Shown piece by piece: positions 16,301 through 55,412 of a stretch of DNA of 64,000 nt. The notes beneath the pieces are model-generated. The model was not told the DNA's origin and did not search any database. It saw nothing but the letters and a program-made list of their open reading frames with translations. How positions within the stretch are numbered: position 1 is the stretch's first letter; each line of letters starts with the position of its first letter. Origin of the DNA: Gordius albopunctatus (Eukaryota); contig OZ193910.1 of the NCBI GenBank assembly GCA_964276515.1, forward strand, positions 1,426,001 to 1,490,000. Direction: 5' to 3'. Both the position numbers and the translations under genes were made by a program.

Positions 16301-19300
16301 TACGTTCTTGTAGGGGGCCGTCTTGCGTTGGCACCATAACAAAAGTCCATCCTTGGCCGTCATTTCTTAAAAAAGATGTCACGTGAATTGAAAGAAAAAC
16401 TTTGGAAAAAAGGAATAATTGTAGAATTTACAAAAATATTTTTATTCACCTTCCATGGTTATGTCTTGTATCGCGAACCGCAAAATGATGGTCCATATCA
16501 TACCCAGCGTCATTTTCAAATTGCCATCCACTATTTCTAAAGGAAAAATGATGAGATTTAGTTTATTTCACGTAAGAACATTATAAAAACGAAGCGTTAA
16601 AATTGGAAAATTATAAGAGCGGACGTATAAAACAAAACAAAAAACAATTATAATTCAAAAGCGTCACATGTGTCATATCTATTAAAAGTGGCCAGCTGTC
16701 GGCCAGGGATTTAAAATTCTACTTTGCTATAAAAATACCCATTTTTTGTTCAAGTAAAAAATCTGTGGAATATTTAGAGGGCGGGCAGCCACGACTGATT
16801 TCTATGAAAAGCTTAATGCCAACCCGACCAAAAGTCCCAGAGCACGAGGCAACTATAGGGGTAAAGATAGATATTAGTGGGTAGGAGGGCCTGGTATTTT
16901 ACCGTTTTGCGGTCTTCAGCTAGGGTCAGAGCGTTGAAGTTCTTGTTATAGGGGGCGAAAATGTGAAAAAATAACCATCATGCGCGTAGCCGGGGGGGGG
17001 GGGAACTGCCCCCTCTAAATCCCAAAATTCCAATCCTGGCTACCCCAATGTACATCGGGGTCCAACTAAATTTAAAGAGGCCGTGATCTAAGCACTTTGT
17101 TGGTGAGGGGAAGACTAACCTTCAGCCCCTATGGAAACGAGCTTGACGCCCTTGAGTTCGATGAATTTGAGGGCTTTGTTGACGTTGGCGATCTTGTGAA
17201 AGCGCATTTTACCCCGGTCCGGCTTGGGTAGAGTTTCCCCCGAAATGACTTCCAACAGGAGCATGAGTCTGAGTCCGTTCCTGAAATCTTCTTCGATGTT
17301 GTCGATCTGCGTGCCCGCTTTCCTCAAATGACTATTGCACCAGGCGGTGAAGGTCTGAAGGGAGGGAAACATACGATACAAGTATATGTAAGGAAGGATA
17401 TATATATATATATATATGTTAGTGGTGTTATAAGGAAACCAAAGCTTTCCAAGTCTGTTTTTCCAAATTCGACCTCTAGGTTTGGTCGGGATTTGGAAAA
17501 GGAGACCAGAAGCGATCCCTAGTCTTAGTTATTAAACCAAAGGTCGACCAAACAACAACCAGCCGTTTTTACAGCTACGATTTCCCCCAAAACTATCGCA
17601 GATTTTGGATATACACAAAGGCGCATATTCCTAAAAACTAACTTCGACCACTATGAGGCTGTGCAAATGAGTACTTAGAAGGGGAAAAGGGACGAATTAA
17701 TGAGATGCAAGCTCTCGAGACCTAAATTCTTAAAATGTAAGGGTTTCTTTGGAAAAGATCTAGACGGTCCCCCCCCTAGTGCGAAAAAATAATTTTTTCG
17801 AGGTCACAACATTGCACCTTCAAAAACCATCATATGTGCGTAGATTAGAGGTGTGCACGGATCAATCCGATCCGACATCCGATCCGATCCGTCAAAACTC
17901 GGATCGGATCGGATGGATATGAAATTTTTCAAAAACCCCTCGGATCGGATCGAAAAAATTTGATCCGTGCACACATCTAGCGTAGATCCCTCACTGCAAA
18001 ATGAAATTTCTCCGACCCGCCTTTATGATTGGATTGGATTGGATATGGCAGGGGGATCTTCTCCACCCCATGCTACACTAATGTCTGCCCCAACCCCTGG
18101 AAAAATTTAAAAAATATTGGTACTCCATGCACGTTCTTTCTAATCCTTAATATCAGGCAAAGAAGTGTTCAAGATATGATTTTGTTTGAAAACGATACTA
18201 TCTTCTCCCATGTCCGTAGCCAGAGGGCGGCGGGGGGGGGGGCGGGGCGATTGCCCCCTCTAAATTCAAAATTTAATATAATTATGGGGCTAAAATTACT
18301 AAAAATTATCATTTTGCCCCCCTTCCCAAAACATCGTTGCCCTCCCCCTCTAAATCCAATCCTGGCTATTGCTACCTTTCTTCAAAGTCCAGACGCGAGC
18401 CCGCACACTGAGTCGCTTAATATAGGCGTTAGCACAATATGTGCTCGCTGTTCGGTGCACGAGGCAGAGCGGTAGCGTATAAAAATGCTCGAGGGCCGGG
18501 CAGAAATTAGAGCAGATGGTGGCTGGAGTTGAAGAAAGTTAGCAATTTACTTACATAGATTTAAAGAATGGCTAGCTTAGAATTAGATGGGAAGAAAGGA
18601 TTAGTTATAAGGTTAATAACAACAGCTGGGTATGCCCACAAACCCAACGAAACTAGCATATAGCCCCCCCCCCTCATTTTCCACACATTTTTGAATGTGC
18701 CTTTGCTTAGTATAAGGATAGCAGCTGTTTAATGTTTGGTCAGATATTGAATTTACAGTGGAGAGATGAATATAAAATCAGGGGAGCATGAGAGAGACTG
18801 GCTTTGGCTTCTGCTAGATGTAAGTAAGTGAGGAATTGGTTTGTGCTTATGGCGACTTTATGAATTATGATGGTTTAAAGGGGGTGCCCAAAATATTGAA
18901 TTGTTTTTTTTTGTTGCAAAGTTGGGGAAAAGAGTCGGGGGATGATATAAAAAGAGTGCTTATGTTTATATAAAATTGTGGGATTTATAAATGAGTCTTC
19001 TAACATTACAATTGATTAAAAATAAAAATATTAAATAGTTGGGTAGATCTAAGATAAAAAGATGCGTCTTCAAATTTCATATAAGCATTCTATTTTTTAT
19101 CAATGTGAAAATAAATGAAATTTAATATATTAAATAACACATAACATTTAATAGTGTATAATATTATTTTTAAAAACAAGAGACTATAATAGATGCTAAT
19201 TTATTAAGGTGTATTTTGGATTGTAATTGCAAATCAATATTTAATTTTTATTAATTTAGTAGTGATCAAAATAGTAAATGACAGATGTTGTTATTAGGAA

Positions 19301-26151: not shown

Positions 26152-26492
26152 ATAATTACCTTTTATCTTCTCTTCACCTGTTTTTATCATGCATTAGGTC
26201 TTAAAGTCGTAATGTATGTTTTGATAAGTTTCCTCCATCTTGATAGGGTAAGCGCCATGTTCTGATTTATTTTCTTCACTTTATATACATGCTCTTTACA
26301 CCTGAAAGAGGTAGTCCTCTTCCTATCTTCCCCGGTACCTCCATTTCTTGTACTTTTCGAGATTTACTTCATTCGTCTATGGTATTATCTAATTAGAATA
26401 GTGGTCCCTTTATGATTTGGATATCACTTTGTTATCATTCCTTCTTACTATATTTGAATACACATTATTTATACTCCTCCTTATTCTATTCC

Positions 26493-26771
26493 TAATAAAT
26501 GTGTAATACTGTTTATCCAACTGATTTCTTACTCGTACTAGGATGATGAAAAAATGTGAAAGGTAATGAGACCAAACTTTATTAATAATCCTTTTTTCGC
26601 TCACACAACGCGTGATAAACATATATATACGATAAATAATATCTCGCGTAATAAATAATATTATTGACGCTCTATAACAACGAGAGATCGAGAGACAACG
26701 ACCGTGTAAACTACAACGGGGTAGGGGGGAAGGGAAGGAGAAATAGAGAAGTGTAAACACCCTTCACAACA
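26493..26771 (-). repeat. 3' LTR of element A
   Basis: Follows the PPT; matches 32069-32347. Confidence 0.95.
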
Positions 26772-26929
26772 CCATCCTTTTTAAAATAAATCCATCCGGG
26801 GCAAGACAAATGAGATAGCGCAACCGGTCAGCACGACCTCTTGATTGTTTAGAAATCGAGAGCTCCTCGGACGACGTAGTTGGGCTCGATGTCTTTACCT
26901 CATTCTCCCGCCTTGCACTTCGCTTCACC

Positions 26930-27676
26930 CTATTGTTCCCCACGCTGGTCCATATTTGCAGACCGGCGTACTACGTTCGACTCAACTGCCGAATCCGGTG
27001 GAGCCACCATTACAGGAGAAAGCAATAAAGCCTCCTCTTCCTGTAACGACAACGTTTCCACCTGACAGACAATTGTTGCCTCACCTGGCGCTACCACGCT
27101 CTGTTGCGACGCCACCGCGGACGACCGTATCAAGGTACTGTCACCCTGCAGCGCTACCGTCCCAACAACGTTCGCACCCGCCACTATTTCCGACGCGTCC
27201 ATTGCCTCAATGATACGCTCTACTACCGTACCTACGGCATTACCACCCTCCGGCGGTATCTGTGGGTTACATCTCAGCCCACGATGCCGACGATGACACC
27301 CATGACACCACCTCCGTGCAACACGACGTCGCCTGCCGCCATTCGTCGCCGGTGGGGCAGCTTCCGCGCCCCTCCGTACCTGGCGCCCAGCGGCTACGCC
27401 GCGTTGCGGATTCTCTTGAATCCTCGCTATCGGGATCCTCACTATCGGGGCGACGTTACGAGCCACTCCGCCACGTCGACCCATATTCACAAATCTTTCA
27501 CCCCCGGGTCGGATCTCTCTCCTCGCCTGAGGGTAGATTTGTTCATGGAAGTTGACCATGTGGGGCACACCGTCTGCACCCACCACAAACGACACGTGTA
27601 AATTGCTTGGGGCGTACAGTGGATCGATCGCCTGAACCACCACTTGTACTCGGCACCACGAAGCAATTATATCCAT
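26930..27676 (-). CDS. Element A ORF3: uncharacterised 248-aa accessory protein with an Arg-rich region and CX2CX3HX4C knuckle
   Basis: Open frame between the integrase tail and the PPT; AG acceptor abuts the ATG; homologous to ORF 54753-55238. Confidence 0.8.
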   Translation of the reverse strand: MDIIASWCRVQVVVQAIDPLYAPSNLHVSFVVGADGVPHMVNFHEQIYPQARREIRPGGERFVNMGRRGGVARNVAPIVRIPIARIQENPQRGVAAGRQVRRGAEAAPPATNGGRRRRVARRWCHGCHRRHRGLRCNPQIPPEGGNAVGTVVERIIEAMDASEIVAGANVVGTVALQGDSTLIRSSAVASQQSVVAPGEATIVCQVETLSLQEEEALLLSPVMVAPPDSAVESNVVRRSANMDQRGEQ

Positions 27677-27981
27677 CTAATATAACTAAAAACATTAGAC
27701 ATTATAACATATCCATATTAATATTTTATTCAAAACGCGGCCGCAATTGCTCTTCATGCCTCATAGCATGGTTATTTGCAGCCGTAAACTCCACGTCGTA
27801 AGCTTTAGAGCCCACGCGGGATTTAACTACCGCTTCGAGCCATTTTTCAGACCCGCCATAACCCCGGGCCCAAACTGCCTCATTAACCCGAAACCGGCCA
27901 ATGTCAGATACACGAGATGTCAACTCGCTATCTACGAACACATCGATCGGTATTCGCGGTATCCTATTTAAAAAAACCTTA

Positions 27982-30822
27982 CTAACCGGCGCGCGACACG
28001 GGAAACGAGGGGAAGCACCAAATGCCTTCTTTCTCCACCTTCTCGTTTTTTAACCATCGTTTAACTATCGCCACATGTCGCTCAGCCAGCCCGTTAGAAC
28101 TAGGATGATAGGGAGGCGTTAATACGTGACGTATGCCCCACCTATCGCAAAACGCTTTAAACTCGGCACTAGTAAACGCGGTACCATTATCTGACACCAC
28201 GCACTTCGGTATGCCAAAAGCGCCCATTAATTTTTCCAAAAAAACAATTACGCTTTTAGTAGATAGTTTCGACACCCGCTCGAATTCAACCCAACTCGAT
28301 GTCGCATCCACCAACAAAAGATATTGCTTAGAGTCAAAATCAAAAAAATCAAGGTGCACTCGATCCCACACATTATGTGCCTGAGGCCACCTCGCCTTTT
28401 TATCATGCCTGGGCATACTCGCATTCTTGTTACATGCAACGCATTTATGCCCATACATGCTTATATCTTTTCCCATCTTAGGCCACCAAACATATCTACG
28501 CGCCAAAACCTTCATTTTAGCCGTCCCAATATGTCCAGCATGCAATAAATTAAGAACCTGAGGACGTAACACTCGTGGAATCACTATGCGTTCACCCCGC
28601 AGAATGATACCGTTCTCAAAACAGAGTTCGTTCCTCACCCCACGGTAACCCACAGGAATCTCCTCGAGCGTCTCGCCGTCAATCAGGCATCTTGTAACTC
28701 GACTCAACTCCTCATCTTTACTAACCTCCTCTTTAAGGTTAACTGATGGGAAAGTTTCCGTTACAATATTGACCAAAAATTTATCACCTTCTAATTCCTT
28801 CTCAGGTAAGGTACCATTATCCTCACCTAAGCACGACAACGTATCAGGTAAATAATTCGTTGCCCCCTTTTTATACTCTAAGGTTACGTTAAAATTCCCC
28901 AAAAACAACAACCATTTCTGTAACCTAGGGCTAAGCAACAAACTATTGTTACACTTCGCGAACAGAGGAATTAGCGGTTTATGATCCGTAAAAACTTTAA
29001 AATCTCGACCAATAAGATACTCACGGCACTTTATTAACGCAAAAACCACGGCAAGAGCCTCCTTCTCGATAACTGAATAATTAAGCTCCGCCGCCGTTAA
29101 TTTACGCGAGAAAAATAGTATTGGCCGTTCTACGCCCATAACAATATGAAAGAGCATGCCACCTATACCGCTATTCGATGCGTCTACCGCTAGACCTATT
29201 GGCAGGTCACGATTAAAACACACCAAAACAGGATCGCTTCCTAACAAGTTCTTTAACTTATCGAAAGCTAACTGCTCCTTTTCGGCCCAAACAAAACGCA
29301 CATTACTCTGCGTCAGTCTATGCAAGGGAGCCGCCACCTCCGAACAATGTGGTATAAACTTGCGATAATACTTAACCGACCCCATGAAAGCCAAAACCTC
29401 TTTTTTACTAACCGGGGCCCGTATATTCTTAATCGCAGCCACCTTACTACCCAGAGGTCTAATTCTCCCACATGCGATAACATGCCCTAAAAAAGTAACT
29501 TCGGTAACCCCAATCATGCACTTTTTCCTGGTTAAACGTAATCCTCTCTCCTGGACGCGGTTCAGTACCGATTCTAGACGCATATCATGCTCTTGCATTG
29601 ACGCGCCCACAATCAGCACATCATCCAGGTAAAAGAACACGCCGTTCAAACCCTGGAAAACCGAGGCCATCGTCTTTTGGAAAACAGACGCCGAAATACT
29701 CAAGCCAAACGGCAAACGATTAAACGCAAACAACCCCAAAGGAGTATTTATCGTCATTAACCGTGCCGATCGAGCATTTAATCTGATCTGCAAATATGCC
29801 GATCTTAAATCAAGTTTTGAAAAATAACATGCGTTACTCAGGTTAGCTAAAATCTCCTCAACCCGCGGAATTGGGTACTTAATTTCCACCAACCACGGAT
29901 TAAGTGTAACCCGGAAATCTACACACAGACGAAGCGAACCGTCGCTCTTCTTAACCGGAACCAGAGGGGTCGCCCACTCACTATAATCGACGGGCGAAAC
30001 TATCCCCTGATCAACCCAGTCCCGAAGCACGGCATTAACTTCGTCCCGCCAAATAAACGGAATACGCCTATTCGGGCAAAACTTAGGACAGGCACCTCGT
30101 TTAAGCAGCACATCGTACTCATACCCCTTTAAACATCCTAAACCTTCCGAAAAAACTTCGGCGTAGCGCGTCACTAAATTACGCAAATTAGATTGCCATT
30201 CGCCCAGGTCGCCCAAACACTTACACTCACCCGAAGGTGTCACACCTGCAGCACCCGAAGGTGTCAAGCCCGCAGGCGTCCCGATGTTTATCATCGCACA
30301 CGACTTAGTCGCTTGCTTGGTACTCGGAGGCTCAATATTACATATCATCGCACTCCCCCCTGGGCTTACTTTACGACTACGCTTTAACTTCAACTCCGGG
30401 GTAGGTACTTCTAACGTGTCACATAACCCGAACCACCTAACACGAGGGCCTATCACTTGCAACCAATCCCAGCCCATTAAAGGGGCGATATTAGCTGCCG
30501 TAATAAAAATAGGTAAATTACACCTCGTGCCGCCAGCCACCACCTCCATACAGGCCTTCCCTACTAATTGGACAGACGCACCATCTAACTGGCGCGCATT
30601 AAAAAGGGAATGGGATATCTTTTTAGAGGGCCAAAATAACTTAAAATGCTTTAATGAAATTAAACTAACACAAGCGCCGGAATCGAGTATAAAATTAATT
30701 AACGCACCTTCCACCCACACTTTTGATGTGGGCAGTTGTGTACCAAATAATAAACGGGGCAAAGCGCTTGTTAAATTAAACGTTACAATGGAGCTGGATG
30801 AATTAGGTACGTTGACATCTAG
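27982..30822 (-). CDS. pol: Element A pol (protease, reverse transcriptase, RNase H, integrase)
   Basis: ILDSGA protease motif; LCVDFR, KLDLRSAY and YLDD RT motifs; VDAS, EKEALA and TDHKPL RNase H motifs; HHCC (HAGH...CVAC) and D,D,E integrase (HLDF, SDNG, AERHV). Frame is open from the ORF1 stop. The integrase C-terminal tail (27726-~27990) is in a shifted frame. Confidence 0.97.
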   Translation of the reverse strand, partial: LDVNVPNSSSSIVTFNLTSALPRLLFGTQLPTSKVWVEGALINFILDSGACVSLISLKHFKLFWPSKKISHSLFNARQLDGASVQLVGKACMEVVAGGTRCNLPIFITAANIAPLMGWDWLQVIGPRVRWFGLCDTLEVPTPELKLKRSRKVSPGGSAMICNIEPPSTKQATKSCAMINIGTPAGLTPSGAAGVTPSGECKCLGDLGEWQSNLRNLVTRYAEVFSEGLGCLKGYEYDVLLKRGACPKFCPNRRIPFIWRDEVNAVLRDWVDQGIVSPVDYSEWATPLVPVKKSDGSLRLCVDFRVTLNPWLVEIKYPIPRVEEILANLSNACYFSKLDLRSAYLQIRLNARSARLMTINTPLGLFAFNRLPFGLSISASVFQKTMASVFQGLNGVFFYLDDVLIVGASMQEHDMRLESVLNRVQERGLRLTRKKCMIGVTEVTFLGHVIACGRIRPLGSKVAAIKNIRAPVSKKEVLAFMGSVKYYRKFIPHCSEVAAPLHRLTQSNVRFVWAEKEQLAFDKLKNLLGSDPVLVCFNRDLPIGLAVDASNSGIGGMLFHIVMGVERPILFFSRKLTAAELNYSVIEKEALAVVFALIKCREYLIGRDFKVFTDHKPLIPLFAKCNNSLLLSPRLQKWLLFLGNFNVTLEYKKGATNYLPDTLSCLGEDNGTLPEKELEGDKFLVNIVTETFPSVNLKEEVSKDEELSRVTRCLIDGETLEEIPVGYRGVRNELCFENGIILRGERIVIPRVLRPQVLNLLHAGHIGTAKMKVLARRYVWWPKMGKDISMYGHKCVACNKNASMPRHDKKARWPQAHNVWDRVHLDFFDFDSKQYLLLVDATSSWVEFERVSKLSTKSVIVFLEKLMGAFGIPKCVVSDNGTAFTSAEFKAFCDRWGIRHVLTPPYHPSSNGLAERHVAIVKRWLKNEKVEKEGIWCFPSFPVSRAG

Positions 30823-31326
30823 TCAACGCACCCCCGCTCCACTAGCAGTCATCGCGGAAGGCAGGCTACACCCGCACGAAGTTGAAACACCCTTATTAAA
30901 ATTATTTCCCCTCTCACTATCCCTGTTCATATTGCCATTACAAAAAGCATTCTGAGAGGGATGCGAAACATTATTACCCGCATAATTCCTGTCATCAAAA
31001 TTAGCCCTATTAAATTTATCCCTATAACCATCTGGCAGTGGTCTAGAATATCTCCCATCTCTGCCATTATCCCTGTTATCAAAACTTTGCCTAATTCTGC
31101 CTTTGAACATCCTTCCTGCTTTCTTATTACAATATCTAACCATATGTGGTCCCCCACAGTGAAAGCATTTTATCGCTTGTTTTACTACATTTACCCTAAT
31201 GCTTAAACACCACATCTTCCACAAAGCAGCTATTAAAACGATTAATAAAACCAGGACTAACCAGTTCGCTCTAATAATATCCACATATAAGTCCACCCTC
31301 TGTGTCGTTTTAAAAAATGATAACAT
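30823..31326 (-). CDS. Element A ORF1 (gag position): predicted TM helix + CX2CX3HX4C knuckle + Arg/Asn/Gly-rich tail, 167 aa, no recognisable capsid domain
   Basis: First ATG at 31326, with an in-frame TAA shortly upstream. Hydrophobic WLVLVLLIVLIAALWKMWCL at ~31263-31204; CFHCGGPHMVRYC at 31167-31129. Confidence 0.8.
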   Translation of the reverse strand: MLSFFKTTQRVDLYVDIIRANWLVLVLLIVLIAALWKMWCLSIRVNVVKQAIKCFHCGGPHMVRYCNKKAGRMFKGRIRQSFDNRDNGRDGRYSRPLPDGYRDKFNRANFDDRNYAGNNVSHPSQNAFCNGNMNRDSERGNNFNKGVSTSCGCSLPSAMTASGAGVR

Positions 31327-32068
31327 ATCTGCTACACAGCTTAACAAATTAACGCTAGTAAAAAAGTTAAATGCTTACTTTAATCGCCTGCAATTAATGC
31401 AATATCCCACAATAGAAAAATTAAACCCTAATCGAAATAAAAAAACTATGGCAAATATATAAATATTACTCTGCAAATTAATTAATGCACGCGCAATCTT
31501 TAAAACAATGTAAGATATACGATACCTTTACTACAACTTGGTTAATTGTTCAAAACTTATAATGTTACCAATATCAAATTACATCAAAATCAATATACAA
31601 CAAGAACAAATTGTAACATATAAATTAATTTGAGGCCAAAATATTGCACAATTTAATCAAATAGCAAAATAGTACGTATCACTAAATTAAATCGAAGCCG
31701 AAATATTAAAAAATTCAAACTAATGGCAAAATTAGTAAATGTTACCAAAACTTTTCAAAGATAATATATTGCACCCCTAAATCTAATAGCAAAATTGTGA
31801 GTTATATTTAAACTAATTCAAAGATAAAATTATTAAAAAATTACGTAAATACCAAATATGCATGTATTTATCAACCCACTTGAAGTAAACTATATATATA
31901 TCAGCGTGATCTAAAACTAATTTGAATCAAGTAAATAGCATAATAAAATTCTTACAATAAACAGCCTGAAAAATTTAATTGTAAGAAGAAAATATCCAAA
32001 AAGCATCAAAAAAATCAGAAATATTACATTATTCATTAAACAAAGAATATTAAATTAGCTATCACCAT

Positions 32069-32347
32069 TAATAAATGTGTAATACTGTTTATCCAACTGA
32101 TTTCTTACTCGTACTAGGATGATGAAAAAATGTGAAAGGTAATGAGACCAAACTTTATTAATAATCCTTTTTTCGCTCACACAACGCGTGATAAACATAT
32201 ATATACGATAAATAATATCTCGCGTAATAAATAATATTATTGACGCTCTATAACAACGAGAGATCGAGAGACAACGACCGTGTAAACTACAACGGGGTAG
32301 GGGGGAAGGGAAGGAGAAATAGAGAAGTGTAAACACCCTTCACAACA
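32069..32347 (-). repeat. 5' LTR of element A
   Basis: Precedes the TGG-initiated PBS; matches 26493-26771. Confidence 0.95.
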
Positions 32348-32499
32348 ATTCCCAATCATTATAATTTGAATAGCCCCCAACTACCTTACGAGTTATTCAT
32401 ATTAAACTCTTTACAATGGTATATAAGCTAATGCTTAACGATAGAGAGTATCTTTGGTTTTATACAAATAAAGTAGGCTCAAACCCCTACAAGTCTCCC

Positions 32500-33360
32500 T
32501 TCTTAGAAATATGCCCATACCACCTTGGGCGATTTTCGTGAGTCATGGCCGCCATAGGTTGAATACCCATTTTTGTCATGAGAAGGTCATAATGCCATAT
32601 CGTCGAGTTTCGTATACCCTATCCATCGTATTATTCTCATCTCTGTGGCTTGTAATAGCTTTTCTTCCGTGGTGTTGAATGCCCATGTTTCACTTCCATA
32701 GAGTAAAACCGGTCTTGCGATGGATTTTCAAGCTTTGCTCTTCAACCATATTGGCATTTTTTGTTCCACATTACACTCCCTCTTGATGTAGCATCGAGCC
32801 GAGGTATGTAAACCTGTCTATTTTTGGATACTTTAGATGGCCATCCAGCGATGAGGCGCCTGTAACGTTCATCTACATGTATCCGTTTTTCGATCGTTGA
32901 CCTTTAAACCATATTCAGCTAATCGCTTTGACCACTTTTAGGTTCTTTCGAATACTTTCTCTTTTGTCTCTTCGCACAGTAGCATATAGCATACACCATG
33001 GCGATAATTTTTGAATGTCTCTCGTTATTATGTCCATAATTATATGAAATAAAAAGCGACTTAGAACAGATCCTTGATGTAATTCAATTATAATGCGAAA
33101 GATTTAGATTCTCTAACTGTCGTCTTAACGCAAGAATTAAAGGCTTTTTAAATAGATTTAATAAGTCGAATATATGCGTCAGGGATATTTTGTTTTCTCA
33201 AGCATCATCAGATTAAATCGCAAGGGACCGTGTCATAAGCTTTCTTTAAGTGGACAAAGACCATATGTAGGTGTCTTCTCTTTTCACCATATTTACTAAT
33301 TTTTAGTCTTAGTGCGAAGATTAGGTCGATTGTGGATTTTCCGGCCACAAATATAGGGTT
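32500..33360 (-). mobile_element. Degenerate RTE-like non-LTR (LINE) reverse transcriptase fragment
   Basis: GKSTIDLIFALR...LHMVFVHLKKAYDTVP, LHQGSVLS and PVLLYGSETWA motifs, with stops and frameshifts. Confidence 0.8.
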
Positions 33361-35638
33361 GTCAGGAATGGCATCCTCTGACACCACCCGCAAGGCTTCA
33401 GTTGATTGAAAACTCAGCAGTTTGCACGTCTCTTTTGGGCCCCAGTCGCTTAAATTGGTTGGCATATGACGTGCGCTTAAAATTGCAGAAGAAAGAAAGA
33501 ACTCAATCGAATCTCCAGATTTATAGAATTTATTTCCTTTAGGTTCAAATCGTAGTCCAACCACGCCAAACGTTGAAGGAATAAATGGGAAGAAGGAATA
33601 TATTCACGAATAAGAGATAACCATCACGGACAACAATTTATTACCAAGGATAGATCACAAGTGGCGAAATAGCGATAAAACAATGGAAACATAAAAATAA
33701 TATATCTTCACGAGGAATAACAAAGTATAAAATAATATACAAAGGTAATCTCACAATTTTATACGCAATATTTATATTAACCAATATCATTTATTTTTAT
33801 CTAAAGTAAAATGCATGTAATATATCATCACATAGAAAAGATAATAAAAAAGCCAGGCACTATCTTGACGGGCCTTAATTTAACTTAATATGATAGATAC
33901 CTTTTAAGTAACCTATGGAAAAAATAGAAATGAGTGAAATTAATTCTTCTTGTCAATTTTAAGATAATTATAACCAACTACGGTGATAAACTTCTCTGAA
34001 TTACATTTATAAAGCAATATAAGGACGGCCAAACTATTCTTATAAACCTGCAACCGTCAATATTATTATAAATACCTTAGATATTTTCAGCATTCACTTG
34101 TCGCCCTAACCCGAGATTCGTAAAGTAAAATATTAATTTTTCTTACAAGCCATATATTAGTTAGAATAAAAATTACAATTAGTTTATGTTTACCTAACGC
34201 AACTAGCCTATACCATTCATTAGATCAAGGGCTTGACTTAAATACGCTCCTGCTCATCCCGATATAACGGAGCTCAACTACGCTTATGCGATATATAATC
34301 TAAAGTTAGATTAACGAATTCGTCAAATCCTATTATGAAATTATACTATTTTTAAATATGAAATAACTGCTAAAGAATTAAAATTATCATTCTGCTTCCT
34401 TTATATTTACAGTATGGATTTTGAGATGAACAAATTTATTCTTGATAGCATATTAGGTATTATCTTAATTTATTTAATGAATTTCTTATGACTCTTATGT
34501 AAGTGTCTTTGCCAAAAATGATATAAGTTTATCACGTGCAATAATTTTAATTTTATAATAGATCTTGATGAAACTCTCTTGCTAGAATATTGGGTATCAT
34601 TATAATTTTAATAAATTTCTTATAATTCTTTTGTAAGTGTCTTCTTTGCAAAAATAATGATATATGTTTAACGGTGCAATAGTTTTATAATTGGCCTTGG
34701 TGAAACTCCTTTTATAATAATTAATCCCTCAATGAATACTTAGCGTGTAGTGTTTTTAGTCTGCGTAGTTAGAGCATACTTCCCTTCAAGTACAATATGT
34801 ATAGTTTTTTAGGTCCTGGAGCAACTCATTTTCTACACCTAATCATAACACAACCATCAAAGCATAAAACATTATAATAGCTCACAGTCTTGAAAAATAT
34901 AATTCCTGAAGAAAAATATATATTAAAGGAAAACTAACCACTTAATTTATCCACCTCTTTATTTCGCTTATCCTACAAAGAAGTCATTTTCATAATAATT
35001 GAAGTATAAACGAAAATTTTGAGACAAGATATAGGGTTGAAAGGTAATTTATTATTTGCGCTTTGTCCCTTAATAATTTGAAATTAAAGCAAAGTACCAC
35101 TTTAGAAAATATTTTACATTTATATTTTTAATGTTTTTAATTAAAAACATGAAATACATAATAATATAATAAAAGAACAATGTGACTTTACAACATTTAA
35201 TAACTCACCTTAATAATATTTTAAACAATTTATAAGAATCTTGTGTGTAATAAGGCCAATGATTATATTTGGGAAAAGCTAGACTCCCGTAGACATAAGC
35301 GTATCCAGGATTGCCTCAAGGCAGGGGTTTACACTAATTAAGGGGGGTGGGGTTAATTTTGTGTCAAAAAGTTTTTGATTAAACAAAAACTAATTAAAAT
35401 TAGATAAATTCAATATCTACGATGGGTATTAGGTTAAAAACCCATTAATAATAGGTTCAGAGACACAAATTGCTAAGAGTTCCTTCCAATTTTTCTGTTT
35501 GCGTTTTTGGGGCAATGTTTGAATTAAACACTTGCATGGGTCTTTTTTGCCCACCAGTACGAAAAATTGTCCCGCCTCGGGACTGTTAAAGTGAAATTAT
35601 AAGCTCGTCATTTTTTGCAAAGCACCGGTGTAGCCTAC

Positions 35639-38600
35639 TGTAACGAAGTGGCCGGCTGGTAGAACCCTAAGCTCCCGTATACTAGGCTCCCGTATAACAC
35701 TAACTCCGATTCTAAACCAAGAGACTAAGTCAAAAGATAGAGACTGTTTTATTAGGTGGATAAGGCTTTATATACACATAGCGAAAGACATATATAAAAG
35801 TAGTAATCAATTAAGAGATAATGTACGGTGTAAACTAAGGTATATTCAAATGGCTAAGCGTATATTCAATTATCTGTGACCGCGCTCAAGTATAGGAAAA
35901 ACGCGTGTATTCAAATTGCAACCTTAAATGCGGCTACACTACACTTCTCCTTCCTTTAAGCGGAACCTTGAGGATATCTGACAGTTGGCACCGATACTCT
36001 TTTATAGGAAAGTATGAAATCGCTTTGACCAACAAGCGCGAGCCAGGTGGTTTGGTTTACCACACCTATAACATATTATTTTCTTGTTGTTCCTAAAGGT
36101 GCTAAGATTAAGAACATTTCTTAAAAAAAATATTATAATTATTAGTCAAATTCCTAGTTGGATATTTTTTATCCAGATGTAATGTCCAAATCGTTAAACT
36201 ATCAATATCCTTTGGATAAATTTGACTTTTTAATTCACTCAGGTGGGTCGTGACTATATAAGCTAGCAACACCAATTTTCTCAAATCTCCGTCAATTTTT
36301 CTAAGACGAAAGATTAATTCCAATTGATATAAATAATCATCAATATTTTTAGTTGAATCATATGGTGTAATATCTCTAACCCAACCAAGAGAATTCCCGG
36401 AATCTGATTCGAATTTTGAACCAAACCAAGAGAATTTCCGGAATCTGATTCCAATTTTGAATTCACATCGGACTTCTTCTTGGTCATTTTGATTAACAAA
36501 GGCTAGCGGCACTCATTATGGAGTATCCCATCCTCGTCGCCAAATGTAACGAAGTGGCCGGCTGGTAGAACCCTAAGCTCCCGTATACTAGGCTCCCGTA
36601 TAACACTAACTCCGATTCTAAACCAAGAGACTAAGTCAAAAGACAGAGACTGTTTTATTAGGTGGATAAGGCTTTATATACACATAGCGAAAGACATATA
36701 TAAAAGTAGTAATCAATTAAGAGATAATGTACGGTGTAAACTAAGGTATATTCAAATGGCTAAGCGTATATTCAATTATCTGTGACCGCGCTCAAGTATA
36801 GGAAAAACGCGTGTATTCAAATTGCAACCTTAAATGCGGCTACACTACACTTCTCCTTCCTTTAAGCGGAACCTTGAGGATATCTGACAGTTGGCACCGA
36901 TACTCTTTTATGGGAAAGTATGAAATCGCTTTAACAAGCGCGAGCCAGGTGGTTTGGTTTACCACACCTATAACATATTATTTTCTTGTTGTTCCTAAAG
37001 GTGCTAAGATTAAGAACATTTCTTAAAAAAAATATTATAATTATTAGTCAAATTCCTAGTTGGATATTTTTTATCCAGATGTAATGTCCAAATCGTTAAA
37101 CTATCAATATCCTTTGGATAAATTTGACTTTTTAATTCACTCAGGTGGGTCGTGCCTATATAAGCTAGCAACACCAATTTTCTCAAATCTCCGTCAATTT
37201 TTCTAAGACGAAAGATTAATTCCAATTGATATAAATAATCATCAATATTTTTAGTTGAATCATATGGTGTAATATCTCTAACCCAACCAAGAGAATTCCC
37301 GGAATCTGATTCGAATTTTGAACCAAACCAAGAGAATTTCCGGAATCTGATTCCAATTTTGAATTCACATCGGACTTCTTCTTGGTCATTTTGATTAACA
37401 AAGGCTAGCGGCACTCATTATGGAGTATCCCATCCTCGTCGCCAAATGTAACGAAGTTGCCGATCACATCCTCGTCGCCAAATGTAACGAAGTGGCCGAC
37501 TGGTAGAACCCTAAGCTCCCGTATACTAAGCTCCCGTATAACACTAACTCCGATTCTAAACCAAGAGACTAAGTCAAAAGACAGAGACTGTTTTATTAGG
37601 TGGATAAGGCTTTATATACACATAGCGAAAGACATATATAAAAGTAGTAATCAATTAAGAGATAATGTACGGTGTAAACTAAGGTATATTCAAATGGCTA
37701 AGCGTATATTCAATTATCTGTGACCGCGCTCAAGTATAGGAAAAACGCGTGTATTCAAATTGCAACCTTAAATGCGGCTACACTACACTTCTCCTTCCTT
37801 TAAGCGGAACCTTGAGGATATCTGACAGTTGGCACCGATACTCTTTTATAGGAAAGTATGAAATCGCTTTGACCAACAAGCGCGAGCCAGGTGGTTTGGT
37901 TTACCACACCTATAACATATTATTTTCTTGTTGTTCCTAAAGGTGCTAATATTAAAAACATTTCTTAAAAAAAATATTATAATTATTAGTCAAATTCCTA
38001 GTTGGATATTTTTTATCCAGATGTAATGTCCAAATCGTTAAACTATCAATATCCTTTGGATAAATTTGACTTTTTAATTCACTCAGGTGGGTCGTGCCTA
38101 TATAAGCTAGCAACACCAATTTTCTCAAATCTCCGTCAATTTTTCTAAGACGAAAGATTAATTCCAATTGATATAAATAATCATCAATATTTTTAGTTGA
38201 ATCATATGGTGTAATATCTCTAACCCAACCAAGAGAATTCCCGGAATCTGATTCGAATTTTGAACCAAACCAAGAGAATTTCCGGAATCTGATTCCAATT
38301 TTGAATTCACATCGGACTTCTTCTTGGTCATTTTGATTAACAAAGGCTAGCGGCACTCATTATGGAGTATCCCATCCTCGTCGCCAAATGTAACGAAGTT
38401 GCCGATCACATCCTCGTCGCCAAATGTAACGAAGTGGCCGACTGGTAGAACCCTAAGCTCCCGTATACTAAGCTCCCGTATAACACTAACTCCGATTCTA
38501 AACCAAGAGACTAAGTCAAAAGACAGAGACTGTTTTATTAGGTGGATAAGGCTTTATATACACATAGCGAAAGACATATATAAAAGTAGTAATCAATTAA

Positions 38601-41600
38601 GAGATAATGTACGGTGTAAACTAAGGTATATTCAAATGGCTAAGCGTATATTCAATTATCTGTGACCGCGCTCAAGTATAGGAAAAACGCGTGTATTCAA
38701 ATTGCAACCTTAAATGCGGCTACACTACACTTCTCCTTCCTTTAAGCGGAACCTTGAGGATATCTGACAGTTGGCACCGATACTCTTTTATAGGAAAGTA
38801 TGAAATCGCTTTGACCAACAAGCGCGAGCCAGGTGGTTTGGTTTACCACACCTATAACATATTATTTTCTTGTTGTTCCTAAAGGTGCTAAGATTAAAAA
38901 CATTTCTTAAAAAAAATATTATAATTATTAGTCAAATTCCTAGTTGGATATTTTTTATCCAGATGTAATGTCCAAATCGTTAAACTATCAATATCCTTTG
39001 GATAAATTTGACTTTTTAATTCACTCAGGTGGGTCGTGCCTATATAAGCTAGCAACACCAATTTTCTCAAATCTCCGTCAATTTTTCTAAGACGAAAGAT
39101 TAATTCCAATTGATATAAATAATCATCAATATTTTTAGTTGAATCATATGGTGTAATATCTCTAACCCAACCAAGAGAATTCCCGGAATCTGATTCGAAT
39201 TTTGAACCAAACCAAGAGAATTTCCGGAATCTGATTCCAATTTTGAATTCACATCGGACTTCTTCTTGGTCATTTTGATTAACAAAGGCTAGCGGCACTC
39301 ATTATGGAGTATCCCATCCTCGTCGCCAAATGTAACGAAGTTGCCGATCACATCCTCGTCGCCAAATGTAACGAAGTGGCCGACTGGTAGAACCCTAAGC
39401 TCCCGTATACTAAGCTCCCGTATAACACTAACTCCGATTCTAAACCAAGAGACTAAGTCAAAAGACAGAGACTGTTTTATTAGGTGGATAAGGCTTTATA
39501 TACACATAGCGAAAGACATATATAAAAGTAGTAATCAATTAAGAGATAATGTACGGTGTAAACTAAGGTATATTCAAATGGCTAAGCGTATATTCAATTA
39601 TCTGTGACCGCGCTCAAGTATAGGAAAAACGCGTGTATTCAAATTGCAACCTTAAATGCGGCTACACTACACTTCTCCTTCCTTTAAGCGGAACCTTGAG
39701 GATATCTGACAGTTGGCACCGATACTCTTTTATAGGAAAGTATGAAATCGCTTTGACCAACAAGCGCGAGCCAGGTGGTTTGGTTTACCACACCTATAAC
39801 ATATTATTTTCTTGTTGTTCCTAAAGGTGCTAATATTAAAAACATTTCTTAAAAAAAATATTATAATTATTAGTCAAATTCCTAGTTGGATATTTTTTAT
39901 CCAGATGTAATGTCCAAATCGTTAAACTATCAATATCCTTTGGATAAATTTGACTTTTTAATTCACTCAGGTGGGTCGTGCCTATATAAGCTAGCAACAC
40001 CAATTTTCTCAAATCTCCGTCAATTTTTCTAAGACGAAAGATTAATTCCAATTGATATAAATAATCATCAATATTTTTAGTTGAATCATATGGTGTAATA
40101 TCTCTAACCCAACCAAGAGAATTCCCGGAATCTGATTCGAATTTTGAACCAAACCAAGAGAATTTCCGGAATCTGATTCCAATTTTGAATTCACATCGGA
40201 CTTCTTCTTGGTCATTTTGATTAACAAAGGCTAGCGGCACTCATTATGGAGTATCCCATCCTCGTCGCCAAATGTAACGAAGTTGCCGATCACATCCTCG
40301 TCGCCAAATGTAACGAAGTGGCCGACTGGTAGAACCCTAAGCTCCCGTATACTAAGCTCCCGTATAACACTAACTCCGATTCTAAACCAAGAGACTAAGT
40401 CAAAAGACAGAGACTGTTTTATTAGGTGGATAAGGCTTTATATACACATAGCGAAAGACATATATAAAAGTAGTAATCAATTAAGAGATAATGTACGGTG
40501 TAAACTAAGGTATATTCAAATGGCTAAGCGTATATTCAATTATCTGTGACCGCGCTCAAGTATAGGAAAAACGCGTGTATTCAAATTGCAACCTTAAATG
40601 CGGCTACACTACACTTCTCCTTCCTTTAAGCGGAACCTTGAGGATATCTGACAGTTGGCACCGATACTCTTTTATAGGAAAGTATGAAATCGCTTTGACC
40701 AACAAGCGCGAGCCAGGTGGTTTGGTTTACCACACCTATAACATATTATTTTCTTGTTGTTCCTAAAGGTGCTAAGATTAAAAACATTTCTTAAAAAAAA
40801 TATTATAATTATTAGTCAAATTCCTAGTTGGATATTTTTTATCCAGATGTAATGTCCAAATCGTTAAACTATCAATATCCTTTGGATAAATTTGACTTTT
40901 TAATTCACTCAGGTGGGTCGTGCCTATATAAGCTAGCAACACCAATTTTCTCAAATCTCCGTCAATTTTTCTAAGACGAAAGATTAATTCCAATTGATAT
41001 AAATAATCATCAATATTTTTAGTTGAATCATATGGTGTAATATCTCTAACCCAACCAAGAGAATTCCCGGAATCTGATTCGAATTTTGAACCAAACCAAG
41101 AGAATTTCCGGAATCTGATTCCAATTTTGAATTCACATCGGACTTCTTCTTGGTCATTTTGATTAACAAAGGCTAGCGGCACTCATTATGGAGTATCCCA
41201 TCCTCGTCGCCAAATGTAACGAAGTTGCCGATCACATCCTCGTCGCCAAATGTAACGAAGTGGCCGACTGGTAGAACCCTAAGCTCCCGTATACTAAGCT
41301 CCCGTATAACACTAACTCCGATTCTAAACCAAGAGACTAAGTCAAAAGACAGAGACTGTTTTATTAGGTGGATAAGGCTTTATATACACATAGCGAAAGA
41401 CATATATAAAAGTAGTAATCAATTAAGAGATAATGTACGGTGTAAACTAAGGTATATTCAAATGGCTAAGCGTATATTCAATTATCTGTGACCGCGCTCA
41501 AGTATAGGAAAAACGCGTGTATTCAAATTGCAACCTTAAATGCGGCTACACTACACTTCTCCTTCCTTTAAGCGGAACCTTGAGGATATCTGACAGTTGG

Positions 41601-44301
41601 CACCGATACTCTTTTATAGGAAAGTATGAAATCGCTTTGACCAACAAGCGCGAGCCAGGTGGTTTGGTTTACCACACCTATAACATATTATTTTCTTGTT
41701 GTTCCTAAAGGTGCTAAGATTAAAAACATTTCTTAAAAAAAATATTATAATTATTAGTCAAATTCCTAGTTGGATATTTTTTATCCAGATGTAATGTCCA
41801 AATCGTTAAACTATCAATATCCTTTGGATAAATTTGACTTTTTAATTCACTCAGGTGGGTCGTGCCTATATAAGCTAGCAACACCAATTTTCTCAAATCT
41901 CCGTCAATTTTTCTAAGACGAAAGATTAATTCCAATTGATATAAATAATCATCAATATTTTTAGTTGAATCATATGGTGTAATATCTCTAACCCAACCAA
42001 GAGAATTCCCGGAATCTGATTCGAATTTTGAACCAAACCAAGAGAATTTCCGGAATCTGATTCCAATTTTGAATTCACATCGGACTTCTTCTTGGTCATT
42101 TTGATTAACAAAGGCTAGCGGCACTCATTATGGAGTATCCCATCCTCGTCGCCAAATGTAACGAAGTTGCCGATCACATCCTCGTCGCCAAATGTAACGA
42201 AGTGGCCGACTGGTAGAACCCTAAGCTCCCGTATACTAAGCTCCCGTATAACACTAACTCCGATTCTAAACCAAGAGACTAAGTCAAAAGACAGAGACTG
42301 TTTTATTAGGTGGATAAGGCTTTATATACACATAGCGAAAGACATATATAAAAGTAGTAATCAATTAAGAGATAATGTACGGTGTAAACTAAGGTATATT
42401 CAAATGGCTAAGCGTATATTCAATTATCTGTGACCGCGCTCAAGTATAGGAAAAACGCGTGTATTCAAATTGCAACCTTAAATGCGGCTACACTACACTT
42501 CTCCTTCCTTTAAGCGGAACCTTGAGGATATCTGACAGTTGGCACCGATACTCTTTTATAGGAAAGTATGAAATCGCTTTGACCAACAAGCGCGAGCCAG
42601 GTGGTTTGGTTTACCACACCTATAACATATTATTTTCTTGTTGTTCCTAAAGGTGCTAAGATTAAAAACATTTCTTAAAAAAAATATTATAATTATTAGT
42701 CAAATTCCTAGTTGGATATTTTTTATCCAGATGTAATGTCCAAATCGTTAAACTATCAATATCCTTTGGATAAATTTGACTTTTTAATTCACTCAGGTGG
42801 GTCGTGCCTATATAAGCTAGCAACACCAATTTTCTCAAATCTCCGTCAATTTTTCTAAGACGAAAGATTAATTCCAATTGATATAAATAATCATCAATAT
42901 TTTTAGTTGAATCATATGGTGTAATATCTCTAACCCAACCAAGAGAATTCCCGGAATCTGATTCGAATTTTGAACCAAACCAAGAGAATTTCCGGAATCT
43001 GATTCCAATTTTGAATTCACATCGGACTTCTTCTTGGTCATTTTGATTAACAAAGGCTAGCGGCACTCATTATGGAGTATCCCATCCTCGTCGCCAAATG
43101 TAACGAAGTTGCCGATCACATCCTCGTCGCCAAATGTAACGAAGTGGCCGACTGGTAGAACCCTAAGCTCCCGTATACTAAGCTCCCGTATAACACTAAC
43201 TCCGATTCTAAACCAAGAGACTAAGTCAAAAGACAGAGACTGTTTTATTAGGTGGATAAGGCTTTATATACACATAGCGAAAGACATATATAAAAGTAGT
43301 AATCAATTAAGAGATAATGTACGGTGTAAACTAAGGTATATTCAAATGGCTAAGCGTATATTCAATTATCTGTGACCGCGCTCAAGTATAGGAAAAACGC
43401 GTGTATTCAAATTGCAACCTTAAATGCGGCTACACTACACTTCTCCTTCCTTTAAGCGGAACCTTGAGGATATCTGACAGTTGGCACCGATACTCTTTTA
43501 TAGGAAAGTATGAAATCGCTTTGACCAACAAGCGCGAGCCAGGTGGTTTGGTTTACCACACCTATAACATATTATTTTCTTGTTGTTCCTAAAGGTGCTA
43601 ATATTAAAAACATTTCTTAAAAAAAATATTATAATTATTAGACAAATTCCTAGTTGGATATTTTTTATCCAGATGTAATGTCCAAATCGTTAAACTATCA
43701 ATATCCTTTGGATAAATTTGACTTTTTAATTCACTCAGGTGGGTCGTGCCTATATAAGCTAGCAACACCAATTTTCTCAAATCTCCGTCAATTTTTCTAA
43801 GACGAAAGATTAATTCCAATTGATATAAATAATCATCAATATTTTTAGTTGAATCATATGGTGTAATATCTCTAACCCAACCAAGAGAATTCCCGGAATC
43901 TGATTCGAATTTTGAACCAAACCAAGAGAATTTCCGGAATCTGATTCCAATTTTGAATTCACATCGGACTTCTTCTTGGTCATTTTGATTAACAAAGGCT
44001 AGCGGCACTCATTATGGAGTATCCCATCCTCGTCGCCAAATGTAACGAAGTTGCCGATCACATCCTCGTCGCCAAATGTAACGAAGTGGCCGACTGGTAG
44101 AACCCTAAGCTCCCGTATACTAAGCTCCCGTATAACACTAACTCCGATTCTAAACCAAGAGACTAAGTCAAAAGACAGAGACTGTTTTATTAGGTGGATA
44201 AGGCTTTATATACACATAGCGAAAGACATGAAAGTAGTAATCAATTACGAGATAATGTACGCTGTAAACTAAGGTATATTCAAATGGCTAAGTGTATATT
44301 C
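35639..44301 (-). repeat. Tandem array of a non-autonomous mini LTR retroelement: 10 LTRs (last truncated) alternating with 9 internal segments; unit 906, 938, then 942 bp
   Basis: 305-bp LTR TGTAAC...CTACA (first copy 35639-35943). PPT AAAGGAAGGAGAAG on -. PBS TGGCGACGAGGATGGGAT matches the tRNA-Ser(GCU) 3' end as I recall it. The internal segment carries a gag N-terminal fragment (IDDYLYQLELIF...VLLAYIG) similar to the gag at 50396-50832. ORF periodicity is 942 bp. Confidence 0.95.
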
Positions 44302-54530: not shown

Positions 54531-55412
54531 CGTTTGCCAGTTGGTATTGAATTTTTTAATCGTAATTTACGTTTTCCGCCTGATTTTTTGCTAGATAGCA
54601 AATTTAAACATCAATCAGGCAAGACTAAATATAATATTAACGATTTTGTGTGGTCGAAAAATTATTTAGGTCAACCTAGATGGGAACTATCTAAAGTTGT
54701 TGATCACGTAGGTAATAAAATTTAGCCTAATGTTTATTTTTTTGCATTGTAGATGGACGTCATTACTTCATGGTGTATTGTCCGAATTGTCGTAGAGAGA
54801 TTGGCCGGAGTGCGTCCTCCGTGCCCTCTCCATATTTCATTTGTTATCGGGATGGACGTCATCCCAAGAATAACGTTTTTTGCAGAGCTTCCTGTGAATG
54901 GGGGTCAGGGGATGCCCCAGGGTGCTAATGGTCGTGTGTATCGGCAGGCACCTATGCGTCTTAACAGAGGAAGTGGTGGTCGACGGCACCCACGAGGTGT
55001 TAATCGTTTGCGGTGTGAAATATGTCAGCGATGGCATCGTTTACCGATGTGTCCGTCGTCGATTGTTAACAATAATTTAAATACCTTGCCTGTTGGAGGG
55101 CAAGTAATCATGCCTGTTGGAGGGCAGGTGGTTACACCCCAGGTACAAACCAGTGGGTTGGCAACAACTATCATTGGTAGTGCTTTGGTCACCCCGTTAG
55201 CTGCTATGACTTTGGCAGGTGATCTGCAAAGGCAGTGATCAGCTATTAAAAAGGGGAGGTGTGGCATATGTCGATATTAAATTATATGCCGAATTAAGTT
55301 ATTTTTATCTTGGTTAAACGTTATAAGCCCTCTGACAAAATAAAATTAAATGCTAGTAATAAAATCCTCCACTAAAATTATAATGTGTTATGGAAATCCG
55401 TTTTTTTTATAA
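54531..55412 (+). mobile_element. 3' remnant of a second ORF3-bearing Gypsy (element C): integrase tail, ORF3, PPT, LTR
   Basis: 54534-54725 (FFNRNLR...DFVWSKNYLGQPRW...VGNK) aligns with the element A tail (FLNRIPR...EAVWARGYGGSEKW...VGSK). PPT AAAAAGGGGAGG at 55248-55259, then TGTGG at 55260. Right boundary approximate. Confidence 0.8.
54753..55238 (+). CDS. Element C ORF3 (161 aa), homolog of element A ORF3
   Basis: MDVITSWCIVRIVV...LHISFVIGMDVIP vs MDIIASWCRVQVVV...LHVSFVVGADGVP; CEICQRWHRLPMC vs CHGCHRRHRGLRC. Confidence 0.8.
   Translation: MDVITSWCIVRIVVERLAGVRPPCPLHISFVIGMDVIPRITFFAELPVNGGQGMPQGANGRVYRQAPMRLNRGSGGRRHPRGVNRLRCEICQRWHRLPMCPSSIVNNNLNTLPVGGQVIMPVGGQVVTPQVQTSGLATTIIGSALVTPLAAMTLAGDLQRQ

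What the first reader, a model, noticed from the sequence alone, without database searches (positions are those of the whole stretch)
26493..32347. Apparently capsid-less three-ORF Ty3/Gypsy retrotransposon: membrane-anchored nucleocapsid-like ORF1, readthrough pol and spliced ORF3
Seen: LTRs identical by eye, a perfect TSD and a near-intact pol, so the insertion is very recent. Yet the ~730-bp leader between PBS and ORF1 is AT-rich with no long ORF, ORF1 is only 167 aa (TM helix + knuckle), pol follows in frame through UGA-CUAG, and an extra non-env ORF lies before the PPT. Established: Ty3/Gypsy elements normally reverse-transcribe inside a Gag capsid particle, and a third ORF, when present, is usually a glycoprotein env. 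Inference: this may be a lineage that tethers its RNA and Pol to a membrane or vesicle instead of a capsid shell, with ORF3 as a second structural or regulatory RNA-binding protein. I cannot confirm novelty without a search.
Basis: partly seen in the sequence, partly recalled or inferred. Interest (0 to 1): 0.92.

Follow-up and report, generated by a model that had tools for sequence, protein, structure and literature searches.

The report
Retrotransposon with membrane anchor, no capsid
This recently inserted, multi-copy Ty3/Gypsy retrotransposon has no detectable capsid gene and instead encodes a short predicted membrane-anchored RNA-binding protein in front of its polymerase, so it likely copies itself on a membrane rather than inside the virus-like shell its relatives build.

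Summary
A 5,855-bp element has identical 279-nt LTRs, a 5-bp target duplication, a 742-nt closed leader, a 167-aa ORF1 (hydrophobic helix plus one CCHC knuckle), UGA-CUAG, in-frame PR-RT-RH-IN, and an ORF3 before the PPT. A capsid profile from 22 Mag/K02A2.6-like relatives finds a neighbouring element's capsid (E 3e-14) but nothing here in six frames. None of 57 related Gag regions has such a helix. Contigs from at least two organisms show the same leader-ORF1-pol layout, so this is a family trait, not a one-copy deletion. The closest Pol is from a horsehair worm (50%). A remnant of a sister element in the same window carries an ORF3 homolog with the same acceptor-like AG|ATG context, so ORF3 is a real orphan gene family. 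This copy's integrase tail is frameshifted. Best reading (0.45): an autonomous lineage whose capsid was replaced by a membrane anchor, with Pol tethered by readthrough. Rivals: capsid borrowed from helper elements (0.25), ORF3 as a new shell (0.15), unseen capsid-bearing parent copies (0.10). No expression, localisation or splicing data exist. Ten paper searches found no description; Repbase and GyDB could not be searched.

The parts
32069..32347 (-). 5' LTR, 279 nt, TG...TA
   Evidence: identical to the 3' LTR
32050..32067 (-). PBS-like site starting TGG one base after the LTR; tRNA not identified, extent approximate
   Evidence: position; function inferred
31327..32068 (-). 742-nt AT-rich leader, closed in all six frames, no capsid remnant
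30826..31326 (-). ORF1, 167 aa: predicted transmembrane helix (about aa 22-41), one C-X2-C-X3-H-X4-C knuckle (aa 54-66), R/N/G-rich disordered tail
   Evidence: kept in other copies
30808..30830 (-). UGA-CUAG stop context inside a predicted 9-bp hairpin; likely readthrough site
   Evidence: stop unchanged in X1 record 8
27729..30822 (-). pol: protease, RT, RNase H, integrase; integrase tail frameshifted near 28,020 in this copy
27677..27698 (-). acceptor-like signal: CTAAT, T-rich run, AG directly before the ORF3 ATG
   Evidence: same arrangement before the sister ORF3
26930..27676 (-). ORF3, 248 aa: beta-rich N-terminal 45 aa, Arg/Gly-rich linker, C-X2-C-X3-H-X4-C motif; 3' part differs in frame between copies
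26772..26782 (-). polypurine tract
26493..26771 (-). 3' LTR
26488..26492 (.). 5-bp target-site duplication (partner at 32348-32352)
   Evidence: joints skipping 5860 nt
54531..55260 (+). 3' remnant of a sister element: integrase tail, acceptor-like signal, ORF3 homolog (54753-55238, 161 aa), purine tract, TG

Best explanation
This is a multi-copy, Mag-related Ty3/Gypsy family with no detectable capsid gene, and it likely replicates autonomously as a membrane-tethered complex, because its Gag is reduced to a predicted transmembrane helix plus one zinc knuckle. Shown: the LTR anatomy, the absence of a capsid signal, the same layout in other copies, and an ORF3 shared with a diverged sister element. 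Inferred steps: (1) genomic RNA makes abundant ORF1, predicted to sit in a membrane with the knuckle and basic tail in the cytosol, where it would bind the RNA; (2) occasional UGA readthrough would make ORF1-Pol, putting protease, RT and integrase on the same membrane at a low ratio; (3) reverse transcription would run from the PBS and PPT in that membrane-bound complex or vesicle; (4) a spliced RNA would make ORF3, a soluble knuckle protein likely to coat or chaperone the RNA or cDNA in place of the shell; (5) integrase makes the 5-bp duplication.
For: Capsid profile: hit on the neighbouring element (E 2.8e-14) and weak hits on array fragments, none inside 26493-32347. 0 of 57 related Gag regions have a 19-residue hydropathy over 2.0 (maximum 1.58) against 2.66 in ORF1; their median length before the protease is 296 aa against 198 here. 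ORF1's only match to the relatives' alignment is the first Gag knuckle (18 columns, E 0.009, probability 4.6%), which suggests a Gag remnant that gained a helix. The layout is kept in X1 record 8 (30714-31400, 0 gaps, stop unchanged), X3 records 22-24 and X6 record 30 (89% identical over ORF1's 5' part, no gaps, alignment ending 4 nt upstream of the ATG). Pol sits on a long branch with the Gordionus protein (SH-aLRT 100, stem 0.9, quick tree); 5 of 9 listed pol differences are synonymous (p 0.03-0.07). Logic: its Pol is fused to ORF1, not to a capsid, and the listed relatives carry Gag and Pol in one ORF, so a pure parasite would gain little from keeping pol and a readthrough context. UGA-CUAG is a readthrough-favouring context and in-frame stops separate gag and pol in other retrotransposons (bioRxiv 10.1101/2022.12.06.519325, passages).
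Against: No RNA, protein or localisation data. ORF1 differences show no significant synonymous excess (6 of 21, p 0.24-0.46; 6 of 25 added). The topology call rests on a weak charge bias (net +1 before the helix, +3 after). Capsid-bearing Mag-type sequences lie in the same window, so a helper may exist. No listed contig spans the whole element, and most joints and loose ends were not shown (95 joints and 1199 loose ends hidden; 10 loose ends). One contig each in X5 and X6 leaves the alignment just upstream of the knuckle for 137 nt that I could not see in full. By established knowledge (recalled), LTR reverse transcription needs a compartment that holds RT, tRNA and RNA together through two strand transfers, and I know no capsid-free LTR element shown to be autonomous.
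Confidence: 0.45

Rival explanations
1. Capsid parasite: the family is non-autonomous for the shell, as BARE-2 is described to be, and its RNA is packaged in particles made by a capsid-bearing Mag-type helper. ORF1 and ORF3 would be adaptors that bring its RNA and Pol to the helper's assembly site.
For: A capsid-bearing Mag-type element (50396-54400) and a tandem array with capsid fragments are in the same window. Recently active elements lacking domains are known and presumed complemented (PMC11963269, passages; the BARE-2 paper seen there as a reference title only).
Against: The neighbouring capsid-bearing element is decayed and does not group with this one in the tree. The layout is held across organisms at about 89% identity. 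A new hydrophobic helix is not what a simple deletion leaves. Pol without a capsid domain has no obvious way to co-assemble.
Confidence: 0.25
2. Capsid replacement: the element is autonomous, and ORF3 (alone, or spliced in frame onto ORF1's helix) builds a new kind of shell or membrane-lined particle through its beta-rich N-terminal domain, with its Arg-rich linker and knuckle binding the RNA.
For: ORF3's first 45 residues and its knuckle are the parts conserved with the sister ORF3 (44% over 45 aa; E 2e-12 overall). A spliced RNA would allow high expression. A donor-like site after ORF1 codon 44 is in phase with the ORF3 ATG (rough matrix, many other sites score as well or better).
Against: 45 residues is small for a shell domain. 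The model is low confidence (pLDDT 39) and no structural or profile match was found.
Confidence: 0.15
3. Deletion derivative: unseen master copies carry an ordinary capsid-nucleocapsid gag, and the copies seen are a successful deleted subfamily mobilised by them.
For: Short contigs cannot exclude rare copies; one unexplained 137-nt loose end upstream of the knuckle in X5 and X6; other internally deleted copies exist in X2.
Against: All listed long contigs from three studies are colinear through leader, ORF1 and pol; in X2 the share of laid contigs running on into unlike sequence is 0; the 30 visible letters of the loose end read by eye in frame as a short hydrophobic and basic stretch like ORF1's own linker, too little to identify.
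Confidence: 0.1

Closest known systems
Mag / K02A2.6-like Ty3/Gypsy elements (Metaviridae)
   Same: PR-RT-RH-IN order, 36-40% Pol identity to K02A2.6-like proteins, first-knuckle spacing C-X2-C-X3-H-X4-C as in 6 of 22 relatives, no Pfam chromodomain hit, LTR, PBS-like site, PPT.
   Different: No capsid; one knuckle where 17 of 22 relatives have two; predicted transmembrane helix; stop between gag and pol where the relatives have one ORF; ORF3; TG...TA ends.
Gordionus sp. protein CAK9296000.1 (P0004)
   Same: Closest Pol (50% over 76% of the query), sister in the RT-RH tree, integrase ends right after its last conserved block as here.
   Different: Only a gene model lacking Gag and protease is available; its ORF1 and ORF3 could not be seen.
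BARE-2-type Gag-less elements
   Same: Recently mobile LTR element without a capsid-forming Gag, pol retained (title seen; details recalled).
   Different: BARE-2 is a close deletion derivative of its helper (recalled); this family has a remodelled ORF1, a long-branch Pol and no close helper found.
sORF2/FAST-like proteins of MDG1-group retrotransposons (bioRxiv 10.1101/2025.03.14.642691, passages)
   Same: Small single-pass protein with a short N-terminal part and basic residues after the helix.
   Different: sORF2 is 63-107 aa, screened with an N-myristoylation motif, and accompanies a capsid; ORF1 is 167 aa, has no MG start, carries a knuckle, stands in place of Gag and is in frame with Pol.
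Non-env ORF3s of bdelloid rotifer LTR elements (PMC5408684, passages)
   Same: Extra ORF between integrase and the 3' LTR that is not env.
   Different: Those are GDSL esterase, DEDDy nuclease, coiled-coil or membrane proteins; this ORF3 is an orphan knuckle protein with no hydrophobic helix (maximum 1.22).
Tombusvirus p33/p92 replicase pair (recalled, not tested)
   Same: Works alike in outline: a membrane-anchored RNA-binding protein whose stop is read through to give a membrane-anchored polymerase.
   Different: Unrelated positive-strand RNA virus; analogy only.

Membership tests
Ty3/Gypsy LTR retrotransposon | two LTRs, target duplication, PBS, PPT | tested here: met
   priming tRNA not identified; ends are TG...TA
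Ty3/Gypsy LTR retrotransposon | pol order PR-RT-RH-IN | tested here: met
Ty3/Gypsy LTR retrotransposon (canonical Metaviridae) | Gag with a capsid domain | tested here: not met
   (positive control in window)
Mag / K02A2.6-like clade | RT-RH groups with the clade | tested here: inconclusive
   inside a 29-row group holding the K02A2.6-named hits (SH-aLRT 93, quick tree), long branch, no named GyDB references available
Mag / K02A2.6-like clade | two adjacent zinc knuckles and a single gag-pol ORF (PMC5408684 passage for rotifer Mag) | tested here: not met
   one knuckle and an in-frame stop; relatives have two knuckles in 17 of 22
Errantivirus-type env-bearing element | ORF3 is a glycoprotein with signal peptide and membrane anchor | tested here: not met
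   no Pfam hit, maximum hydropathy 1.22
sORF2/FAST-like fusogen | 63-107 aa, MGxxxS/T start, single helix, 3 or more K/R in the next 15 residues | tested here: not met
   167 aa, no MG start; helix and 3 K/R present
BARE-2-type capsid parasite | a closely related autonomous helper with intact Gag in the same genome | not testable with these tools
   no genome held; the capsid-bearing element in the window is decayed and does not group with it
Readthrough gag-pol elements | a readthrough product is made | not testable with these tools
   context UGA-CUAG present and unchanged in X1 record 8; no protein data

The most novel reading that the evidence does not exclude
It would be an LTR retroelement that is mobile without a capsid.
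Probability: 0.4. Interest if true: 0.92.

Novelty: new variant of a known kind. Interest (0 to 1): 0.74.

Why it matters
The Gag capsid is treated as a universal part of autonomous LTR retrotransposons and retroviruses, the compartment in which reverse transcription completes. A family that keeps moving with a membrane helix in its place would show either that a membrane can do that job, or a more elaborate form of capsid parasitism than simple gag deletion. ORF1 and ORF3 are small and can be tested alone. ORF3 is also a new protein family with no match among 1.84 billion cluster representatives.

Tried and rejected
No whole genome is held, so copies could not be counted. Homolog searches found nothing for ORF3 (word search, 136-434 aa only; two-sequence profile against 1.84 billion proteins; ESM Atlas; PDB sequences; metagenome contigs) or for ORF1 (word search, 91-293 aa only; Atlas). 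Longer fused forms of ORF1 were not searched, and ORF1 got no exhaustive profile search. Viral contigs held no Pol pattern match. Ten metagenome loci were distant (26-43%) and had no ORF1 or ORF3 match. Foldseek on both models gave no match at E 0.001; the ORF3 model is too poor to mean anything, and the wider structure search was not run. No RNA holder was listed, which says nothing about expression. The synonymous-change test on ORF1 and ORF3 was not significant. A rough donor-site matrix, recalled and not from a call, did not single out a donor. The careful tree did not finish; the quick tree was used. Earlier scan findings: none. Rejected: decayed capsid in the leader (24% GC, 17-28 stops per frame, no profile hit); ORF3 as env; ORF1 as sORF2/FAST; plus-strand ORFs at 30167-30955 and 27047-27601 (no Pfam hit, antisense to real genes); the sister ORF3 as part of the capsid-bearing neighbour (it follows its own integrase tail). 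Paper searches: searches returned no paper; searches returned none describing this layout in the listings or passages seen. No supplements were read; Repbase, GyDB and Dfam entries, and supplements of genome papers, could hold this family unseen.

Full report
Observation. The element lies on the minus strand from 32347 to 26493. Its LTRs are 279 of 279 identical, bounded by a 5-bp duplication, and end TG...TA. A TGG begins one base after the 5' LTR and a purine tract precedes the 3' LTR. The 742-nt leader is 24% GC and closed in all six frames. ORF1 (167 aa) has a strongly hydrophobic stretch (2.66 over 19 residues), one C-X2-C-X3-H-X4-C knuckle and an R/N/G-rich tail. Its stop reads UGA-CUAG and lies in a predicted 9-bp hairpin (z -1.89 for the 151-nt window, 5 of 200 shuffles as good). 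Pol follows in frame with protease, RT, RNase H and integrase. The integrase tail is frameshifted near 28,020. ORF3 (248 aa) lies between integrase and the PPT.

Relatives. The best Pol hit is a Gordionus (horsehair worm) gene model at 50%; the next are K02A2.6-like, Mag-type polyproteins at 36-40%. In a quick tree of RT-RNase H (72 rows: the window's two elements and the first 70 qualifying hits of the 120 listed) the element pairs with the Gordionus protein on a long stem (SH-aLRT 100, 0.9) inside a 29-row group that holds the K02A2.6-named hits (93). No named reference elements were available, so 'Mag-related' rests on hit names, the Gag knuckle pattern and my recall of the clade. The host is not identified; a nematomorph is a guess from this one hit.

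Is the capsid really missing? I built a profile from the first 175 residues of 22 full-length relatives (taken from the top 32 hits; the Gordionus model and nine shorter or N-terminally cut hits were left out) and searched all six frames of the window with stops read as X. It finds the capsid of a neighbouring element at 50395-50814 (E 2.8e-14) and weak fragments in a tandem array, and nothing in 26493-32347. Profile comparisons of ORF1 and ORF3 with the relatives' alignment match only the first Gag knuckle, and weakly (E 0.009 and 0.6). AlphaFold models ORF1 residues 4-57 as one confident helix followed by disorder; the ORF3 model is low confidence, with three short strands and no helical bundle. 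Of the 120 listed Pol hits, 57 have at least 105 residues before the protease motif; 0 of 57 have a hydrophobic stretch over 2.0.

Is it one broken copy? No. Seven runs of three studies hold the sequence, from organism A, organism B and one run without an organism; six were laid. X1 record 8 spans 30714-31400 with five differences, all listed and none in the stop, and no gaps. X3 records 22-24 cover 30487-32159 with two short unbridged gaps. In organism B, X6 record 30 matches ORF1's 5' part at 89% without gaps, stops aligning four bases upstream of the ATG and rejoins the leader 130 nt further; the record is 398 nt long, so no capsid-sized insert lies there. Similarity thus drops at the ORF1 start, as expected if the helix-coding part is constrained and the leader is not. 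Against this: ORF1 shows no significant synonymous excess (6 of 21 listed differences, p 0.24-0.46; 76 further differences were not shown), although none is a stop, none falls in the knuckle and two fall in the helix. Low-depth contigs with one-base indels in ORF1 and internally deleted copies also exist, and one contig in each of X5 and X6 diverges just upstream of the knuckle for 137 nt that I could not see in full. No listed contig spans the whole element. Contigs of X1, X3 and X4 differ in length from this copy at the integrase break, so the break looks private to it; 5 of 9 listed pol differences are synonymous (p 0.03-0.07).

ORF3 is a real gene family. A 161-aa ORF at 54753-55238 (+) is homologous (E 2e-12; 44% over the first 45 residues), with the same start, beta-rich N-terminus and knuckle spacing. 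It follows its own integrase tail, 34% identical to this element's over 64 aa (E 4e-10), and precedes a purine tract and a TG, so it is the 3' end of a diverged sister family; its Gag is not preserved. Both ORF3s have CTAAT, a T-rich run and AG directly before the ATG, the pattern of a splice acceptor. A frame-changing length difference between this copy and X1/X2 contigs lies near 27,130, about where homology to the sister ends, so the last 65 or so residues are probably copy-specific. No other homolog was found.

Mechanism. The best reading (0.45) is an autonomous element with a membrane anchor in place of the capsid. ORF1 would sit in a membrane with knuckle and tail in the cytosol (weak charge bias) and bind genomic RNA. 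Readthrough would give a minority ORF1-Pol on the same membrane; in-frame stops between gag and pol and the CUAG context are documented (bioRxiv 10.1101/2022.12.06.519325, passages). ORF3 from a spliced RNA would chaperone or coat the nucleic acid. The argument for autonomy is indirect: Pol is maintained, is fused to ORF1 and not to a capsid, and the listed relatives that could act as helpers make their own Pol in one ORF with Gag. Rivals are capsid parasitism (0.25; capsid-bearing Mag-type sequences exist in the window, and such complementation is presumed for other defective elements, PMC11963269 passages), ORF3 as a new shell (0.15) and unseen capsid-bearing masters (0.10). All functional steps are inferred.

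Comparison and novelty. It is a Ty3/Gypsy element by LTRs and pol, works like one in priming and integration, and fails the capsid test of canonical Metaviridae and the two-knuckle, single-ORF pattern of Mag (PMC5408684, passages). ORF1 is not an sORF2/FAST protein by the length and start motif given in bioRxiv 10.1101/2025.03.14.642691 (passages), and ORF3 is not env. Ten paper searches found no description of this layout; passages of PMC12737674 and PMC11089739 were not relevant. Repbase, GyDB, Dfam and most subscription journals were not searchable. Verdict: a new variant of a known kind, interest 0.74, with a 0.4 chance of the stronger reading that an LTR element is mobile with no capsid at all.

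Noticed in passing
window 35630-44305: About nine head-to-tail copies of a 942-bp unit, 99-100% identical, that looks like a miniature LTR element: a PBS-like TGG site, a 134-codon frame with weak similarity to the N-terminal half of a Mag-type capsid, and a knuckle in another frame. A tandem array of a gag-fragment-only element.
   Followed up: partly
window 50233-55733: A long inverted-repeat pair (50233-50395 plus 54401-54530 against 55414-55733, 95-100%) encloses both a decayed capsid-bearing Mag-type element (50396-54400, 5' end missing) and the 3' remnant of the sister element with the ORF3 homolog. A foldback-like structure that has captured retrotransposon pieces.
   Followed up: partly
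window 30808-30830: The ORF1 stop codon lies within the 5' arm of a predicted 9-bp hairpin. It could tune readthrough; A-to-I editing of the stop is a speculative alternative.
   Followed up: partly
window 26493-26500 and 32069-32076: The LTRs end in TA, with a CACA a few bases inside; unusual for the TG...CA rule.
   Followed up: no
window 26200-26492 and 32348-33100: The element sits in a high-copy repeat with short frames that look by eye like the end of a LINE reverse transcriptase, so the joints that skip the element may come from other copies of that repeat.
   Followed up: no
window 13732-14169 and 17115-17528 (-): Exons that look by eye like alpha-actinin (actin-binding domain and spectrin-type repeat); label recalled, Pfam did not confirm it on the one exon frame scanned.
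   Followed up: no
window 45807-49218 (+): A FLYWCH zinc finger (E 1.3e-6) and a downstream frame that looks by eye like a Mutator-type transposase fragment.
   Followed up: no
window 31763-31842 and 31638-31715: An 80-nt imperfect direct repeat (75%) inside the leader; possible packaging or dimerisation element, untested.
   Followed up: no
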